Virus record (IMG/VR): IMGVR_UViG_3300010885_022465
Coordinates: 532-64,531 of that record
Reading direction: 5' to 3' (one strand)
Length of the DNA stretch: 64,000 nucleotides
From: a virus
Taxonomy: Duplodnaviria > Caudoviricetes
Shown: positions 101 to 18,605 of the stretch, piece after piece
How positions within the stretch are numbered: position 1 is the first letter of the stretch
Layout: every line of letters starts with the position of its first letter
Program-made: the position numbers and the translations under genes
Notes under the pieces: generated by a model
The model's input: the letters and a program-made list of their open reading frames with translations, nothing else
What the model was told of the DNA's origin: nothing
Databases searched by the model: none

Positions 101-108
101 TATATTTG
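101..108 (+). promoter_or_regulatory. Bacteroidota -7 promoter element
   Basis: TATATTTG directly before a hairpin/terminator leader. Confidence 0.7.
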
Positions 109-111
109 TAA

Positions 112-205
112 CAGATAATAAGAGTATCTGACAACTTAGGACATTTGCCGAAAGGCTAATATATAACCAAAAGAAAAACCCTGTACTCTTATTACAGGGT
201 TTTTT
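112..205 (+). ncRNA. Promoter-proximal leader RNA: 5' hairpin, GNRA hairpin, intrinsic terminator with complementary loop
   Basis: CAGATA-ataagag-TATCTG (112-130); GCC-GAAA-GGC (147-156); AAAAACCCTGTA-ctcttat-TACAGGGTTTTT (174-204); the two 7-nt loops are exact complements. Confidence 0.6.
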
Positions 206-209
206 GTTT

Positions 210-430
210 TATACCCTATTCCAAATAAAGCAGGTCTTAGCCTGTATGACAAGGCTCAACTAACTCAAAAGGAAAGTCGAACATCTTAAATTATAGGTAG
301 TACTTTCGTAAACTTGTGTGCCCTGTAAGCCGAACGACAAACTCAAAAACTCAACTGAAGCAGTTATGGTGATGGTCAACAGTTATCTTTTATCTAAGGG
401 GATAAGGGGTAACTTGTTTTTCATCACCTC
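210..430 (+). ncRNA. ORF-free structured region ending in a long G-U-rich hairpin
   Basis: GGTGATG...CATCACC closes an irregular hairpin at 368-428 with several G-U pairs valid on +; smaller hairpins near 231-258 and 354-366. Confidence 0.4.
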
Positions 431-5374: not shown

Positions 5375-5382
5375 CAAATATA
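5375..5382 (-). promoter_or_regulatory. -7 promoter element for packaging operon
   Basis: CAAATATA = TATATTTG on -. Confidence 0.6.
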
Positions 5383-5467
5383 ATACAATTTACATGTAAA
5401 AAACACATTTCCTCAAAAGTTTGTACGCATAAATACAAAGCAAATTGTCACCACAAAAAGCAACACT

Positions 5468-6072
5468 AACTTATTGACAATCAACTACATAACTCCCCGT
5501 GCTATATATGTTCCTTTTGGATAGTCCTTAATGGCTAGTATGAGTAATCCCATTACGAATGCCCATATAGATGCAGTCCTAGAGCTCTAATCAGGTACCA
5601 ATATGTAAAACATACCCCTCCCCTTTTTAAAAACATCCTTACGTAACTCACTGGTAATTAGGTAAATTTTTGAAATACGTCTGTGGGTTTTTTGTGAAAA
5701 ATATGCGGTACGTCTGTGGGGGGCTTACTCGACCACATGTATCCCCCACCTCCTTCAACCGAAAACCGAACATTCTGATTATCAACACTTTACGATCGTG
5801 TTTTTCTGCTTTTCACCCTTAATTATTTGATTCTCACACACTTACACACTACCTAAGTTGTTCACAGGTGTTAATTTATTGATACTCAGTTAGTTGAGGG
5901 TGTTTAGTGGTGTGTTACCCCCGCCGAAAATTCACCTTATTTCAGTACTTTTGTGGCTACTTTTTTACCTTATTTTGTCCCGTTTTTGCCTGTTTTTTGG
6001 GTACTTCTGAAATTATTTTCACTTTTTTTAAATTATTTTTTATCGTCATATATCCTTGATTTTCAGTTTGTT
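5468..6072. repeat. Array of palindromic AA-N5-TGA-N3-TCA-N5-TT boxes
   Basis: TGA at 5475, 5776, 5828, 5880, 6057 plus a degenerate copy at 5652; three copies exactly 52 bp apart. Confidence 0.7.
5676..5720. repeat. 12-bp direct repeat TACGTCTGTGGG x2
   Basis: 5676-5687 and 5709-5720. Confidence 0.85.
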
Positions 6073-6140
6073 ATCCTCATGTACGCGCGCGCGAATCCAA
6101 CTTCAATTCAAATTAAATTTTCAAATTAGAATTTATATAG

Positions 6141-6148
6141 TATATTTG
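6141..6148 (+). promoter_or_regulatory. -7 promoter element at start of early arm
   Basis: TATATTTG with AT-rich upstream region. Confidence 0.7.
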
Positions 6149-6151
6149 TCC

Positions 6152-6702
6152 TGTCCCTCAGTCAAAACAACGACACACAACAGGGCACCACGCTTGCATC
6201 GGTAGGGTGGTTATAGATAAAGGTTTGTGTATGGTACGCTGTACATATAACGAATATAGGAAATTGCTATGCACGAACTGACAGAAAAGGTTATGTTGCT
6301 TAGGGTGGATAAGTATGTTCGGACTTGAAATAAGGTTTACGAATTTGTTGGCAAAACGACAAAGCAACCGATATTATTACGTGTACATGGGCGTTTAGGC
6401 GTGTACGTTCCCTAGGGAACACGTGTATATAGTGTAATATTAGGACTTTGTGGCAAGAGGGTGCAAAACGTAAATTATGGGGTGCAATTATTAAGGTAGG
6501 GATACCACACTAATAACGTGTGAATTGTGCGAAGTAAAGGATATAAGGCAATATTGAGTAATTAACACAATTACGTGAAATATAGTACGACTTTACTTGA
6601 AAAAATGTTTCTTGAATTTCTTATATAGTTGGTTTACTGAAGAGTACAAAAGTACGAAACGAACGTGTGAATAATAGTAACACGTTCGTATAAACCTATA
6701 AA
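6152..6702 (+). ncRNA. Candidate large structured ncRNA or 5' leader (~550 nt)
   Basis: No plus-strand ORF of 60 aa or more; hairpins 6187-6211, 6226-6247, 6344-6363, 6407-6420, 6495-6506 (GNRA), 6659-6689; crossing long-range pairings. Confidence 0.55.
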
Positions 6703-6712
6703 ATTATATATC

Positions 6713-13943: not shown

Positions 13944-14322
13944 TTTTAATGTTGGAGATAGAGTTGTCTGTATTGACGACTCTAAACCAAAAGATTTTAA
14001 ACCTCATCACTTCCCTAATTGGGTAGTACAAGACGAGATTTACCACGTAAGAGCAATCCTAAACAACGATGACATAGTTCCTGGTGTATTGCTTAGGGAG
14101 ATTAAAAATCCTATGTTATTCATTCCTTTAATCAACGAGCTTCAAGAAGGGGCATTTAGAGAAACAAGATTCAGCCTATTGAAGTCTGCGCAAATGATTA
14201 TGGAAACTGAAGAACATTCTGCTGAAGTGTTTAAGAGGTGGAAACAAAAACAAAAACAGAAATATGAAAACAATTACATCAACAATGCTTTTGTGGGTAG
14301 CACTCACGAGCCTAACAGCTAA
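13936..14322 (+). CDS. hypothetical protein (FNVGDRVVCIDD N-terminus)
   Basis: Common phage SH3-like N-terminal motif. Confidence 0.65.
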   Translation: MSDFNVGDRVVCIDDSKPKDFKPHHFPNWVVQDEIYHVRAILNNDDIVPGVLLREIKNPMLFIPLINELQEGAFRETRFSLLKSAQMIMETEEHSAEVFKRWKQKQKQKYENNYINNAFVGSTHEPNS

Positions 14323-15308: not shown

Positions 15309-16064
15309 ATGGAGACAATTAAAATTAGATGCTCAAGCATCGGTAAGATTATGACTGGAGCTACACAAGTAGGACTTACAGCAAAACAAGAAGAAACTTT
15401 AGCAGGCTTGTTAGCAAAGATTAAGCTAACAGAAAGACAAGCAGAAGAACGCGACAGATTGATTGCAAAACGTGACGCTAAGCCCGAACTATCAGTAGGT
15501 GCTAAAACTTACGTAGAATCATTGGTTAAGGCAAATTACTTGATGTATGAGGGTGCGCAGTTATTCTCATCTAAGGAAACGCAGAAAGGATTGATGGTAG
15601 AAGACGCTGCAATCTCTTTCTTGTCTGACTTTTACTTCGATGAATACAAGAAGAATGATGAGTATTTCTCTAACGAATACATTCATGGAACGCCCGACAT
15701 CGTGCACAATAAAATCATTAAAGATGTTAAGTGTCCTTGGTCAAAAGCTACGTTTCCTATTACATTGAAAGATGCAATAAACACGGACTACGAATGGCAA
15801 GTAAGAGGTTACATGTGGCTAACAAATTCTGACATGGCAACAATAGAGTACACATTGATGGATACTCCTGAAGAGCTATGCAAGTACGAAGACCCTTTGC
15901 TTCATCAAGTATATTACCTACCTGCTGAAAAAAGAGTATTCCAAGTAGTGTATCTACATGACCAGGAAAAACAAGACATGATTAAGACGCAGGTAGAAAT
16001 GTGTCAGCAATACGCAAAAGACTTTTACGATTTAATTACAGACAATCAATTACAGCAATTATGA
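15309..16064 (+). CDS. YqaJ/lambda-exonuclease-like nuclease
   Basis: RCSSIGKIM, KGLMVE, GTPDIV, DVKCPW, YEWQVRGYMWL. Confidence 0.85.
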   Translation: METIKIRCSSIGKIMTGATQVGLTAKQEETLAGLLAKIKLTERQAEERDRLIAKRDAKPELSVGAKTYVESLVKANYLMYEGAQLFSSKETQKGLMVEDAAISFLSDFYFDEYKKNDEYFSNEYIHGTPDIVHNKIIKDVKCPWSKATFPITLKDAINTDYEWQVRGYMWLTNSDMATIEYTLMDTPEELCKYEDPLLHQVYYLPAEKRVFQVVYLHDQEKQDMIKTQVEMCQQYAKDFYDLITDNQLQQL

Positions 16065-16549: not shown

Positions 16550-16657
16550 TATATTTGCAATGTAGTTCGCTCTCACAATATAGAACAAAAAAATTAGTAT
16601 ATCCCTATTTAACGAGTAACGATGTGAGAGCCGTGAAAATTAAGTAGGGTTTTTTTA
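16550..16657 (+). ncRNA. Promoter plus leader RNA with complementary-loop terminator upstream of replication operon
   Basis: TATATTTG (16550); GTTC-gctctcacaatata-GAAC; terminator CCCTATTTAA...TTAAGTAGGG-T run carrying TGTGAGAGC, the complement of GCTCTCACA. Confidence 0.65.
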
Positions 16658-16699
16658 TCACTAAATTTTGCGTGTTTTTAAATAAAATACGAATAGACT

Positions 16700-16897
16700 A
16701 TGGATGACGTAAAGTTATTGTTCTTAGGAACAAAAGAAACAGACACCAATCAAGTATCGCTAGAATTATTTGCAACAAACAGAAACACTGTTATGATTAC
16801 AATGGAATCTGATGGTATCCAGTTAATGGAAGTAAGTAAGCAGACTGCAATAAGACTAAGCAAAGAGCTTAAAAAACAAATAGCTTTACTAGATTAG
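16700..16897 (+). CDS. hypothetical protein
   Basis: First ORF after the leader. Confidence 0.65.
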   Translation: MDDVKLLFLGTKETDTNQVSLELFATNRNTVMITMESDGIQLMEVSKQTAIRLSKELKKQIALLD

Positions 16898-16899
16898 CC

Positions 16900-17643
16900 A
16901 TGGAAAAGATGCAATGGTTTAAGTTCTCAATTTCCGAATGGAAGATGGGGAAGATTCAGAAGTGCACCAAAGAAGCTAAGTCAGCCTTTATGGAGTTGTG
17001 TTGTTTGTATTGGATAAATGAAACCAAACTTTCTATTGAAGATGCAATTATCGAATGCGATGAAGAGAACTACAGAAATTTATTATCTAAAAAAGTAATC
17101 AAGGAAGTAGATGGATTTATTAATATTTATTTTTTAGATGAACAGTTTGAAAATATACTAGAAAAATCTGTAAAGGCAAGAGAATCAGTAGAAAAGAGAT
17201 GGTCAAAACGTAATACGAACGTATTACAGTCGAATAACGAACGTAATACAAACGTAATACGACCGAATTACGAACGTAATACAGAAGAGAAGAGAAGAGA
17301 AAAAGAATATACTTTCGATTTTAAAAAATCTCTTTTGTCTTTAGGTTTTGATTCTGCTCTAGTAGATGAATGGCTGAAAGTTCGTAAGGCTAAAAAACTT
17401 ACTAATACACAAACAGCATTCAATAAGTTTGTAAAGCAAGTTGAACTTACAGGTGTAGATAAGAATTTAGTCCTAGAGAAATGTGTTGAGAAAAGTTGGG
17501 GAGGATTTGAAAGCTCCTGGATTAATCAATCTACATTTTCTAATGCTAAAGTAGAGGTTAAGATATTAGGTGTTACTGCTGACGGAGAAGAAGTCACAGA
17601 CCCTTTAGTGTTTCACGTGTATAAACAAATGGGTAAATTATGA
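16900..17643 (+). CDS. replication initiator (lambda O / replisome organiser type)
   Basis: MQWFKF N-terminus, internal iterons, C-terminal EWLKVRKAKK...EKSWGGF domain; upstream of helicase. Confidence 0.75.
   Translation: MEKMQWFKFSISEWKMGKIQKCTKEAKSAFMELCCLYWINETKLSIEDAIIECDEENYRNLLSKKVIKEVDGFINIYFLDEQFENILEKSVKARESVEKRWSKRNTNVLQSNNERNTNVIRPNYERNTEEKRREKEYTFDFKKSLLSLGFDSALVDEWLKVRKAKKLTNTQTAFNKFVKQVELTGVDKNLVLEKCVEKSWGGFESSWINQSTFSNAKVEVKILGVTADGEEVTDPLVFHVYKQMGKL
17207..17305. repeat. Replication origin: 11-bp-phased iterons AACGTAATAC plus purine tract
   Basis: Copies at 17207, 17218 (variant), 17240, 17251, 17273; degenerate at 17229, 17262; then AGAAGAGAAGAGAAGAGAAAAAG. Confidence 0.75.
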
Positions 17644-18605
17644 TACTACCATCAGGACATAGTAACGATTACTTGGTTGACTACAAAGATGGGAAGATAC
17701 AAAAGGGATTAGGTTTAGGTATTTCTTTTGATGAATACCTGCTATTCAAAAGAAGACAGTTGAATATTATATTAGGTCATGATAACGTAGGAAAGTCTTA
17801 CTGGTTTGAATGGTACATGCTAGCGCTAAGCTCTCAACACGATTTAAAGTGGACCATATGGATGGGAGAAAATTCATCAGGTCAAGTAATGAGAGATTTA
17901 ATTCAGATGTATTCAGGAAAACACTTCAAGGATTTATCTTACAATGAAATAAGAAAATATGCAATAAAGATAGAACATTGGTTTACGTTTGTATCAAACG
18001 CTAGATTGTATAAGCCACATGAACTGCTAGATATTTTCAATAGTACAAATGCAGATGGTTGTTTCATTGACCCTTTCACAGGATTGGATAGAGGAATGAC
18101 ACATGCAGATAACTACGAGTTTTTAAATACCACAAGGCAGTTTTGTAATCAAACAAACAAAACAGTTTATGTATCTACACACCCAACGTCAGAGTCAGGA
18201 AGAACAAGTATGCTTTACCCTGATGGACACATGTGGAAGGGACACCTTAGAGCACCAATGAAAGCTCACGTAGAAGGTGGTAAACCATTCCTTAATCGTT
18301 GTGATGATATGATTGTAATACATAGACTTGTTAAGCATCAAGACATGAAGTATAGCACCATGATTGATGTTGAGAAAATTAAAGATAGAGACACAGGTGG
18401 TCAGCAAACATCATTGAACGAGCCAATACTATTTGAGTTCAATAATGGTTTAGGATTTAAGTTAGGAGGTATAGATGCTATCAAAAGAGCAAGGCAAGAG
18501 CCTGAGCAAACGTCTTTGCAAGTTCCAAGTTATCCACCACCTGTGAACTTTTACGAAACAGGAAGACAGAGTAATGAATTTGAGGATGAAGATTGTCCTT
18601 TTTAA
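17640..18605 (+). CDS. DnaB/SF4-type replicative helicase
   Basis: Walker A GHDNVGKS, IDPF, STHP, KIKDR arginine-finger region. Confidence 0.8.
   Translation: MILPSGHSNDYLVDYKDGKIQKGLGLGISFDEYLLFKRRQLNIILGHDNVGKSYWFEWYMLALSSQHDLKWTIWMGENSSGQVMRDLIQMYSGKHFKDLSYNEIRKYAIKIEHWFTFVSNARLYKPHELLDIFNSTNADGCFIDPFTGLDRGMTHADNYEFLNTTRQFCNQTNKTVYVSTHPTSESGRTSMLYPDGHMWKGHLRAPMKAHVEGGKPFLNRCDDMIVIHRLVKHQDMKYSTMIDVEKIKDRDTGGQQTSLNEPILFEFNNGLGFKLGGIDAIKRARQEPEQTSLQVPSYPPPVNFYETGRQSNEFEDEDCPF

What the first reader, a model, noticed from the sequence alone, without database searches (positions are those of the whole stretch)
16550..16657. Kissing-loop terminator, copy 2, gating the replication initiator/helicase operon
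Seen: same architecture as 101-205 with unrelated sequence. TATATTTG, then hairpin GTTC-[GCTCTCACAatata]-GAAC, then terminator CCCTATTTAA...TTAAGTAGGG-T run whose apical loop holds TGTGAGAGC (16623-16631), a 9-nt exact complement of 16569-16577. Two sequence-independent instances in one genome argue against chance. Inference: a phage RNA-switch class that controls read-through into replication genes, loosely analogous to antisense/kissing control of plasmid rep genes.
Basis: partly seen in the sequence, partly recalled or inferred. Interest (0 to 1): 0.8.

Follow-up and report, generated by a model that had tools for sequence, protein, structure and literature searches.

The report
Phage leader RNA with kissing-loop terminator
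A short leader RNA of phages that infect Flavobacteria, placed between a promoter and the replication genes, folds so that its 5' hairpin loop base-pairs with the loop of its own terminator; the pairing is kept through many compensating mutations and matches no RNA family I could find in Rfam or the paper searches.

Summary
At 16550-16657 a Bacteroidota-type -7 promoter box is followed by a small 5' hairpin and an intrinsic terminator. The terminator's apical loop (16623-16631) is the exact 9-nt complement of the hairpin loop (16569-16577). Copy 1 (101-205) has the same design with other letters.

It is not chance. The same unit sits upstream of the initiator gene in 20 of 23 related loci. It also occurs in a second family next to the terminase gene and in three cultured phages (Polaribacter P12002L, Flavobacterium morran9-1, Tenacibaculum Gundel_1). 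More than 25 different loop pairs stay complementary. In the covariation count, 0 of 500 shuffles reached the observed score, and no Rfam family matches.

The unit always lies 4-45 nt before a first ORF, or before a conserved non-coding stretch for copy 1. The ORFs are O-like initiator/helicase operons, HNH endonuclease genes and others. I therefore read it as a promoter-proximal leader/attenuator that gives a compact ~95-nt RNA plus a read-through mRNA.

The loop-loop helix never overlaps the terminator stem, so it is more likely a clamp on the fold than a classical antiterminator. What it does to termination, RNA stability or action in trans is not shown. It is a new variant of leader-terminator control, and cultured phages make it testable.

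The parts
16550..16557 (+). -7 promoter box of the Bacteroidota sigma-A type (TAnnTTTG)
   Evidence: The exact 8-mer occurs 19 times in the window against 6.6 expected, and 0 of 100 shuffles reach 19. The consensus letters are invariant across 15 aligned homologues. In Flavobacterium the box spans -12 to -5 (PMC9723704, passage read), which puts the start at about 16562.
16565..16586 (+). 5' hairpin P1: stem 16565-16568 / 16583-16586, 14-nt loop
   Evidence: The hairpin alone is marginal, -0.9 kcal/mol. All 3 counted stem pairs show changes on both sides among 11 homologues (helix 1).
16569..16577 (+). segment A: the 9 loop bases that pair with the terminator loop
   Evidence: 6 of 9 pairs show compensatory double changes (helices 2-3). 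The duplex is -14.2 kcal/mol.
16587..16602 (+). A-rich single-stranded linker (16 nt)
   Evidence: A/U-rich linkers are present in all homologues.
16603..16649 (+). intrinsic terminator hairpin: lower stem 16603-16612 / 16640-16649, inner stem 16619-16621 / 16632-16634, 10-nt apical loop
   Evidence: Energy is -11.1 kcal/mol, or -7.7 for the lower stem alone. T16608.G16644 is a wobble on the + strand and would be an A.C mismatch on the other strand.
16623..16631 (+). segment A': apical-loop bases complementary to 16569-16577
16650..16656 (+). run of 7 T (U-tract) ending the ~95-nt RNA
16657..16699 (+). 43-nt leader between terminator and first ORF; holds a near-box with one T too many at about 16663-16671
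   Evidence: It is conserved with L016 and L018. A second promoter here cannot be excluded.
16700..18605 (+). downstream operon: 65-aa ORF (16700-16897), O-like replication initiator (16900-17643) with an 11-nt iteron array at 17207-17294, primase/helicase-like protein (17640-18605)
   Evidence: ORFs; phrog_6451, phrog_678, phrog_18375; iterons.
101..205 (+). copy 1: box 101-108, hairpin 112-130 (loop 118-124), linker with a small hairpin, terminator 174-204 (loop 186-192), T-run 200-205
   Evidence: (z = -3.99). Its orthologue in L218 keeps the stems and has 3 compensatory double changes in the 7-bp loop-loop helix.

Best explanation
The element is a promoter-proximal leader RNA that acts in cis as a transcription attenuator, in phages of Flavobacteriia. 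Shown: a host sigma-A type -7 box; a 5' hairpin (in one subfamily the 5' end itself); an intrinsic terminator 4-45 nt before a first ORF; and a conserved 7-10 bp helix between the 5' loop and the terminator's apical loop. Inferred: RNA polymerase starts about 5 nt after the box. Most transcripts end at the U-tract and give a compact ~95-nt RNA whose two ends are tied together by the loop-loop helix. A fraction reads through into the operon, here the small ORF, the O-like initiator with its internal iteron origin, and the helicase-like gene. The helix lies strictly inside the terminator loop and never overlaps the stem, so both can coexist as a kissing-loop pseudoknot. I therefore take it to be a clamp that stabilises the leader fold, not a competing antiterminator. 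In the long-looped versions such as this one, the terminator hairpin alone is weak (-11.1 kcal/mol, with a 27-nt apical part) and the loop-loop duplex is the strongest helix (-14.2). There the clamp would raise termination. In all versions it would bury the 5' end and harden the structure that abuts the start codon. Expression of the operon would then depend on leak-through, or on something that prevents the clamp. That last step is speculation.
For: Conserved pairing. (1) 20 of 23 loci found with the initiator protein carry the unit upstream. (2) 24 of 63 unique flanks of a leader motif carry it, and 23 of those 24 have the loop complement. (3) Among 35 unique promoter+terminator units, 26 have an exact complement of 7 nt or more between the 5' part and the terminator loop. 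This compares with 25 of 1130 non-cognate combinations and 262 of 7000 shuffled loops. (4) In terminase-linked loci, 18 of 44 units have such a complement. (5) In the official count on 11 homologues, the covariation score is 0.473 against 0.187 for shuffles (0 of 500 reach it) and 0.09-0.15 for slid partners. 19 of 25 pairs change on both sides. (6) Two near-identical alleles, L002 and L003, differ inside the RNA only by two compensatory double changes. (7) Window copy 1 and L218 differ by three compensatory double changes in a 7-bp helix.

RNA on the + strand. The box is conserved. G.U pairs are present. No box lies on the minus strand between 16314 and 17256.

Leader position. ORFs start 4-45 nt after the T-run, and in the endonuclease and terminase-side families there is no room for another promoter.

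Coexistence. The complement always lies within the loop. Ordinary terminators in the same window have 3-12-nt loops, against 27 nt here.

RNA-library contigs. Two runs from two studies bridge the terminator into the ORF (records 3 and 10). DNA carry-over is not excluded.
Against: No experiment shows termination, read-through or any effect of the helix. In copy 1, L218 and the terminase-side family the terminator stem is strong on its own (-13.8 kcal/mol for copy 1). The loop emerges only a few bases before the 3' half of the stem, so there the helix can hardly influence the termination decision, and a role at the level of the finished RNA is more likely. In some homologues the linker is only 11-13 nt (L015, L018, L019), which may be too short for all helices to coexist; that would favour competition rather than a clamp. 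L048 has lost the partner segment, and L250 has a mismatch in the helix. In the window itself a near-box after the terminator could drive the operon independently. A self-contained clamp offers no obvious regulatory input.
Confidence: 0.45

Rival explanations
1. Dual-function, self-addressed riboregulator. The short terminated RNA acts in trans, through one of its complementary loops, on nascent or read-through transcripts from the same promoter. It would change their termination or translation. Each operon carries its own loop code.
For: The complementarity needed for pairing within one molecule serves equally for pairing between molecules. Copies within one genome carry different loop pairs: the window's two copies, and L008, L019, L023 and L068. 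L002/L003 and window/L218 differ almost only in the paired loop bases. Precedents: the P4 CI RNA pairs with seqA and seqC in the leader of its own replication operon and causes premature termination; short IsrK acts on the read-through isoform from its own promoter (both from passages of PMC4825925).
Against: Pairing within one molecule should out-compete pairing between molecules wherever the linker is long enough (copy 1 has 46 nt). No third complementary site exists in the genome. Across 11 type-A homologues the paired loop segments are no more variable than the rest (54-60% against 46-65% identity), so there is no general sign of diversifying selection on an address code.
Confidence: 0.2
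2. RNA-only antiterminator or licence. The loop-loop helix forms before the 3' half of the terminator stem is made and hinders its closure, sterically or by tension in a short linker. Polymerases that made a correctly folded leader would then read through.
For: Nested alternatives are nearly isoenergetic for copy 2 (-14.2 against -13.3 kcal/mol), and the RNAfold centroid is the long-range helix. Linkers of 11-16 nt in several type-A homologues look short for a straight stack of about 28-32 bp (geometry is my own estimate). RNA-library contigs cross the terminator. HK022 put RNA is a precedent for RNA-only antitermination after early phage promoters (recalled, not read here).
Against: The complement never overlaps the terminator stem, unlike classical antiterminators. 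Families with long linkers and strong short-looped terminators (copy 1, L218, L237) cannot work this way. A terminator that is always defeated in cis has no evident use.
Confidence: 0.15
3. Stand-alone small-RNA gene. The ~95-nt RNA is the product, the single-stranded linker is its seed, the loop-loop helix only makes it compact and stable, and the downstream genes have their own promoter.
For: The promoter-hairpin-linker-terminator layout is the usual small-RNA layout. The window has a near-box after the terminator. Copy 1 is not followed by an ORF. A conserved motif follows the terminator in about 24 related loci and could be a separate control site.
Against: In the endonuclease and terminase-side families the ORF starts 4-20 nt after the T-run, with no space for a promoter. 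The unit always points toward, and abuts, a first ORF.
Confidence: 0.1
4. Processing site. Hairpin stem, loop-loop helix and inner stem stack into 16-20 bp of near-continuous duplex that a double-strand-specific RNase (RNase III type) cuts. This would open the terminator loop and mature the mRNA.
For: Summed helix lengths are 16-20 bp in the parsed elements. Kissing complexes of plasmid antisense RNAs are known RNase III substrates (recalled).
Against: There is no direct evidence. Copy 1 and the terminase-side family lack the inner stem.
Confidence: 0.05
5. Not an RNA feature: chance, or a DNA-level inverted repeat such as protein half-sites or an origin hairpin.
For: A 9-nt complement within 100 nt is not rare on its own, and the element sits near a replication module with iterons.
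Against: Controls. More than 25 different complementary pairs occur at homologous places. G.U pairs occur on the + strand only. The box and the T-run are strictly associated. Half-sites about 45 bp apart do not fit a dimeric protein.
Confidence: 0.02

Closest known systems
Phage P4 immunity: CI RNA with seqA/seqC in the leader of the replication (alpha) operon (as summarised in PMC4825925, passage read; original papers not read)
   Same: Complementary segments are encoded on the same strand, in the untranslated leader of a phage replication operon. RNA-RNA pairing is linked to premature termination.
   Different: P4 CI is cut out of the leader and acts in trans on two flanking targets, in a temperate satellite. 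Here there are two segments only, placed in a 5' hairpin loop and in the loop of an intrinsic terminator. No processing is known, no integrase is found, and no Rfam match is found.
IsrK of the Gifsy-1 prophage (PMC4825925, abstract and passages read)
   Same: One promoter gives a short terminated RNA and a read-through mRNA. A leader terminator lies ahead of phage genes.
   Different: IsrK pairing opens a ribosome site in trans. No pairing between a 5' loop and a terminator loop is described there.
Plasmid antisense attenuation and copy control by kissing loops (pT181, pIP501, ColE1 RNA I/II, R1 CopA/CopT; recalled; PMC3753616 and PMC4872101 seen as search listing and abstract only)
   Same: Loop-loop helices of 6-9 bp control or accompany termination ahead of replication initiator genes. 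The loops act as specificity codes.
   Different: In those systems the partner is a countertranscript from the opposite strand, so complementarity is automatic. Here both partners are on one transcript at two DNA sites and must co-evolve. No minus-strand promoter box is present.
Lambda nutR-tR1 ahead of O/P, PR'-tR' 6S RNA, and HK022 put RNA (recalled; Q antitermination described in a passage of PMC4825925)
   Same: A promoter-proximal RNA element plus a terminator gates delayed phage genes, including O-type replication genes. There are two or more sites per genome.
   Different: nut and qut sites are bound by phage proteins and are conserved in sequence between sites. put hairpins are not known to pair with a terminator loop.
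OxyS-fhlA and other small RNAs that use terminator loops (PMC11979758, passages read)
   Same: The exposed bases of an intrinsic terminator loop take part in a kissing interaction.
   Different: Those act between molecules, on an mRNA target.
   Same: A phage-encoded ~100-nt RNA with two complementary loops that covary among relatives.
   Different: pRNA loops pair between molecules to build a ring on the packaging motor. There is one gene per genome and it is not a leader. No Rfam match was found here.

Membership tests
Any Rfam 15 family | Match at or above the family's gathering score | tested here: not met
   There are 0 matches in the whole window and 0 in 12 related loci, 82 kb in total. 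With permissive E-values only sub-threshold terminator-like hits appear: the best is 17.8 bits against a gathering score of 39 for copy 2, and 27.5 against 60 for copy 1.
P4 CI / P1-P7 c4 type same-strand antisense RNA | Antisense segment flanked by two complementary target segments; processed RNA acts in trans | tested here: not met
   Only two complementary segments exist, and no third copy with 0 mismatches is found in the genome. Processing is not testable here.
Countertranscript-driven attenuation (pT181/pIP501 type) | Promoter on the opposite strand that gives an antisense RNA over the leader | tested here: not met
   No -7 box lies on the minus strand between 16314 and 17256. The sigma-70-type hit at 16576-16548 is not the promoter type of this phylum.
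Classical terminator/antiterminator attenuator or riboswitch expression platform | The alternative helix overlaps the 5' half of the terminator stem | tested here: not met
   The complement lies inside the terminator loop in all parsed elements. In copy 1 it can extend 2 nt into each stem.
Riboswitch | Conserved unpaired nucleotides that form a ligand pocket across the class | tested here: not met
   Across the subfamilies only the helices are shared, and the compact versions (copy 1, L074, L023) have no spare loop bases. This is a judgement from alignments, not a binding test.
Intrinsic (factor-independent) terminator | G+C-based stem directly followed by a run of T | tested here: met
   The stem has 10 pairs with three G-C pairs at its base, followed by 7 T. 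Termination itself was not tested.
Bacteroidota sigma-A promoter | TAnnTTTG box at -12 to -5 | tested here: met
   The box is at 16550-16557 and 101-108. It is enriched in the window and its consensus letters are invariant in homologues. Its position relative to the start site is taken from PMC9723704. The start site was not mapped here.
Kissing-loop complex | Two hairpins whose loops form a Watson-Crick helix that stacks on the stems | tested here: inconclusive
   Complementarity and covariation of both stems and of the loop-loop helix are met. The paired segment starts right after the 5' strand of P1 and ends right before the 3' strand of the inner stem. Whether pairing occurs within one molecule or between two, and the 3D geometry, cannot be tested with these tools.

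The most novel reading that the evidence does not exclude
Each operon leader makes its own small RNA that carries both halves of a private loop code. Once the terminated RNA accumulates with genome copy number, it pairs in trans with nascent leaders from the same promoter and shifts them to termination. That would be a sense-encoded, self-addressed counterpart of plasmid countertranscript copy control. It would time the shut-off of the initiator/helicase genes and of transcription across the iteron origin, with loop codes that keep co-infecting relatives and the phage's other leaders orthogonal.
Probability: 0.15. Interest if true: 0.85.

Novelty: new variant of a known kind. Interest (0 to 1): 0.7.

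Why it matters
Regulatory RNAs of phages that infect Bacteroidota are almost unknown, although these phages are abundant in lakes and oceans. This motif is well supported by covariation and occurs several times per genome. It precedes replication modules and homing-endonuclease genes, and it is present in at least three cultured phage-host systems, so it can be tested directly. Pairing between the 5' hairpin loop (or the 5' end) and the apical loop of an intrinsic terminator did not turn up as a described design in Rfam or in my paper searches. Working out what it does would add a new way of building leader control. The natural set of more than 25 mutually distinct loop pairs on a common scaffold may also be useful as orthogonal parts for RNA circuits. 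It also shows that at least one annotated small CDS (gp042 of phage morran9-1) probably covers an RNA element.

Tried and rejected
- Rfam searches at gathering and permissive thresholds found nothing.
- MAFFT alignments put some loops out of register. L010 and L016 are off in A2, and L046, L086 and L092 in A3. The official count therefore includes two misregistered rows and understates pairing. A3 was not counted.
- A loose two-hairpin scan gave 180 mostly AT-rich false positives and was dropped in favour of the strict scan.
- Relatives of ORF 494-847: none.
- A third complementary site in the genome: none.
- Diversifying selection on the loops: not supported overall.
- Tyrosine integrase: none. 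Serine recombinases were not searched.
- Metatranscriptome contigs are read-sized and of low depth. They cannot show starts, ends, strand or level, and uncovered parts mean nothing.
- The genome-contig scan gave only one phage-like contig binned with a Flavobacterium MAG, plus one weak hit. That is weak host evidence.
- Among cultured relatives, Arctus_1 has no intergenic space upstream of the initiator gene and RAP44 has no such unit there.
That comparison rests only on the loop sizes printed.
- Literature searches found no description of this design.

Full report
**What the window is.** The window is bases 532-64531 of a 64,531-bp IMG/VR virus record with direct terminal repeats, rated complete.
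- The Bacteroidota -7 promoter box is enriched: the exact 8-mer of the finding occurs 19 times against 6.6 expected, and 0 of 100 shuffles reach 19.
- The nearest named relatives of the replication genes are phages of Polaribacter, Flavobacterium, Tenacibaculum, Leeuwenhoekiella and Riemerella.
- One related contig is binned with a Flavobacterium MAG.
- No tyrosine integrase is found.
- Genes around the finding are an exonuclease (15309-16064), two small ORFs, then the element. After it come a 65-aa ORF (16700-16897), an O-like initiator (16900-17643) and a primase/helicase-like protein (17640-18605).
- The initiator ORF holds an array of 11-nt iterons at 17207-17294, as in lambda-type origins.

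**The observation.**
- The box is at 16550-16557.
- Hairpin stem 16565-16568 pairs with 16583-16586.
- Terminator stem 16603-16612 pairs with 16640-16649 and includes one G.U pair.
- An inner 3-bp stem is formed by 16619-16621 and 16632-16634.
- Seven T follow at 16650-16656.
- Positions 16623-16631 are the exact complement of 16569-16577.
- Copy 1 (101-205) has a 6-bp hairpin with a 7-nt loop (118-124), and a terminator whose 7-nt loop (186-192) is its full complement.

In Flavobacterium the box occupies -12 to -5 (PMC9723704, passage read). Transcription should therefore start near 16562 and give an RNA of about 95 nt with the hairpin at its very 5' end.

Of 25 terminator-like hairpins in the window, three have a box within 130 nt upstream. 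Two of those three are the two copies, with 9- and 7-nt loop complements, and the third has 5. Thermodynamic folding alone is unremarkable for copy 2 (z = -0.31) and good for copy 1 (z = -3.99).

**Comparative evidence.**
- With the initiator protein I fetched 23 related IMG/VR loci. Twenty carry the box, a 5' hairpin or segment, and a terminator whose apical loop is complementary to it, with different letters from locus to locus. The other three (L021, L022, L024) show none in the region seen.
- A conserved motif that follows the terminator in many of these loci retrieved 79 loci with 63 unique flanks. Of these, 24 carry the unit and 23 of the 24 have the complement. L048 has a truncated terminator without a partner.
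- A strict scan (box, then a G+C-based stem and T-run within 140 nt) over the window and loci L002-L102 found 35 unique units. Of these, 26 have an exact complement of 7 nt or more between the 5' part and the terminator loop. The controls gave 25 of 1130 non-cognate combinations and 262 of 7000 shuffled loops.
- With the terminase protein I fetched 55 more loci. The same scan found 44 unique units, 18 with a complement of 7 nt or more; the two in L266 are doubtful. These include the orthologue of copy 1 in L218. They also include a further subfamily in which the predicted first transcribed bases themselves pair with an 18-24-nt terminator loop.
- On an 11-sequence alignment the official count gave 79.3% paired cells against 64.4% in shuffles, and a covariation score of 0.473 against 0.187 (0 of 500 shuffles reach it). 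With slid partners the score was 0.09-0.15. In all, 19 of 25 pairs change on both sides, including all 3 pairs counted for the 5' hairpin stem, 6 of 9 for the loop-loop helix and all 3 for the inner stem. Two rows are out of register, which lowers the figures.
- L002 and L003 differ inside the RNA only at two adjacent bases of each partner, and both changes are compensatory.
- Window copy 1 and L218 keep the hairpin stem and differ by three compensatory double changes in the 7-bp loop-loop helix.
- Counter-examples are L048 (partner lost) and L250 (one mismatch).

**Cultured phages.**
- Polaribacter phage P12002L has one such unit, with an 8-nt complement, in the unannotated gap upstream of its replication protein. 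The start codon lies 4 nt after the T-run.
- Flavobacterium phage morran9-1 has one, also with an 8-nt complement, upstream of its small ORF, initiator homologue and primase. It overlaps the annotated 47-aa CDS gp042.
- Tenacibaculum phage Gundel_1 has one, with a 9-nt complement read by eye, upstream of its replication protein.
- Leeuwenhoekiella phage Arctus_1 has no intergenic space there, and Riemerella phage RAP44 has no such unit.

**Context.** The unit always points toward, and closely precedes, a first ORF.
- In the window the gap is 43 nt to the 65-aa ORF.
- In L019 and L023 it is 6-13 nt to the initiator or another ORF.
- In L023, L068 and L008 it is 4-5 nt to ORFs with the N-terminal motif of NUMOD4/HNH homing endonucleases. 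That label is my recognition; the P12002L record annotates similar genes as HNH homing endonucleases.
- In the terminase-side subfamily it is 10-20 nt to a conserved ~100-aa ORF.
- In these short-gap cases there is no room for another promoter, so the ORFs can only be transcribed by reading through the terminator.
- Copy 1 and its L218 orthologue are instead followed by a conserved non-coding stretch of about 210 nt that ends in a second strong terminator at 381-414.
- In the window's copy 2 a near-box with one extra T lies just after the terminator, so an independent promoter cannot be excluded there.
- Contigs from two metatranscriptome runs of two studies bridge the terminator into the ORF (16575-16744 and 16615-16843). 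Such libraries can hold DNA, and contigs show neither ends nor strand.

**How it probably works.**

*Shown:* a conserved RNA-level helix between the 5' loop and the terminator loop, in a promoter-proximal leader.

*Inferred:* the unit is an attenuator that yields a short compact RNA and a read-through mRNA.
- The complement always lies inside the terminator loop and does not overlap the stem. It is therefore not a classical antiterminator, and all helices can in principle coexist as a kissing-loop pseudoknot.
- For copy 2 the 5' hairpin (-0.9 kcal/mol) and the inner hairpin (+0.9) are marginal. The terminator is modest (-11.1, or -7.7 without the inner stem), and the loop-loop duplex is the strongest helix (-14.2).
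- Ordinary terminators in the window have 3-12-nt loops, against 27 nt here.
- I therefore favour a clamp that stabilises the leader fold. It would help long-looped terminators to work, tie down the 5' end, and harden the structure next to the start codon.

*Against a single such role:* copy 1 and the terminase-side units have strong stems and would terminate without help. Some homologues have 11-13-nt linkers that may not allow all helices at once, which would turn the helix into a competitor of the terminator.

*Other readings:* the same complementarity would also allow pairing between molecules, as in P4 CI RNA or IsrK (PMC4825925, passages read). Copies in one genome always differ in their loop pairs. 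However, the paired segments are not more variable than the rest of the RNA overall. Because read-through here would also cross the iteron origin, the unit may influence the origin as well as initiator supply. That point is speculation by analogy with lambda, which I recall rather than read.

**Comparison with what is known.**
- No Rfam family matches.
- Five full-text searches found no description of a 5' hairpin loop or 5' end pairing with the loop of the leader's own intrinsic terminator. Most subscription journals and all supplementary files were out of reach.
- The closest systems by function are P4 CI/seqA/seqC, IsrK, plasmid countertranscript attenuation with kissing loops, lambda nut/tR1 and PR'/tR', HK022 put, and terminator-loop kissing by OxyS (PMC11979758, passages read).
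- The element fails the defining features of each of these that I could test (see Membership tests).

**Verdict.** This is a real, conserved and apparently undescribed leader RNA design in phages of Flavobacteriia. The structure is strongly supported. The regulatory meaning is open but directly testable in cultured phages.

Noticed in passing
window 17207-17294: An array of about eight 11-nt direct repeats (iterons) lies inside the O-like initiator ORF. It is probably the replication origin, 550-640 nt downstream of the leader terminator.
   Followed up: partly
window 206-414: A non-coding stretch of about 210 nt follows copy 1. It is conserved with L218 and ends in a strong 14-bp terminator (381-414). 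It has no Rfam match and an unremarkable fold (z = -0.25). It may be a non-coding RNA reached by read-through of copy 1.
   Followed up: partly
window 5380-6712: A 1.3-kb region without ORFs of 80 aa or more lies between divergent gene blocks. It has -7 boxes at 5375-5382 (minus strand) and 6141-6148 (plus strand) and G+C-rich patches. Its function is unknown.
   Followed up: no
L002-L098, just after the terminator (e.g. L002 about 2760-2800); window 16657-16699 has a second version: A leader motif of about 30 nt between the terminator and the small ORF is conserved at the DNA level, even where the upstream RNA element is of a different type. It could be an operator, an alternative promoter or a translation signal. 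It is unexplained.
   Followed up: partly
L276 (MN812219.1) 14157-14300: The annotated 47-aa hypothetical CDS gp042 of Flavobacterium phage morran9-1 overlaps the promoter box and the whole leader RNA. It is probably not a gene.
   Followed up: partly
L222-L270, about 80 nt upstream of the promoter box: Long pyrimidine-rich CT-repeat tracts precede the promoter of the terminase-side leader family.
   Followed up: no
L003 from 217, L012 from 511, L005 from 1526: A second kind of short promoter-plus-terminator unit has a 6-nt terminator loop and no loop complement. Not every promoter-proximal terminator in these phages has the kissing design.
   Followed up: no
L023 640-1167; L068 2-430 (minus strand); L008 from about 5140: HNH/NUMOD4-like endonuclease ORFs each have their own promoter and kissing-loop leader. 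The start codon lies 4-5 nt after the T-run, which suggests tight control of these selfish genes.
   Followed up: partly
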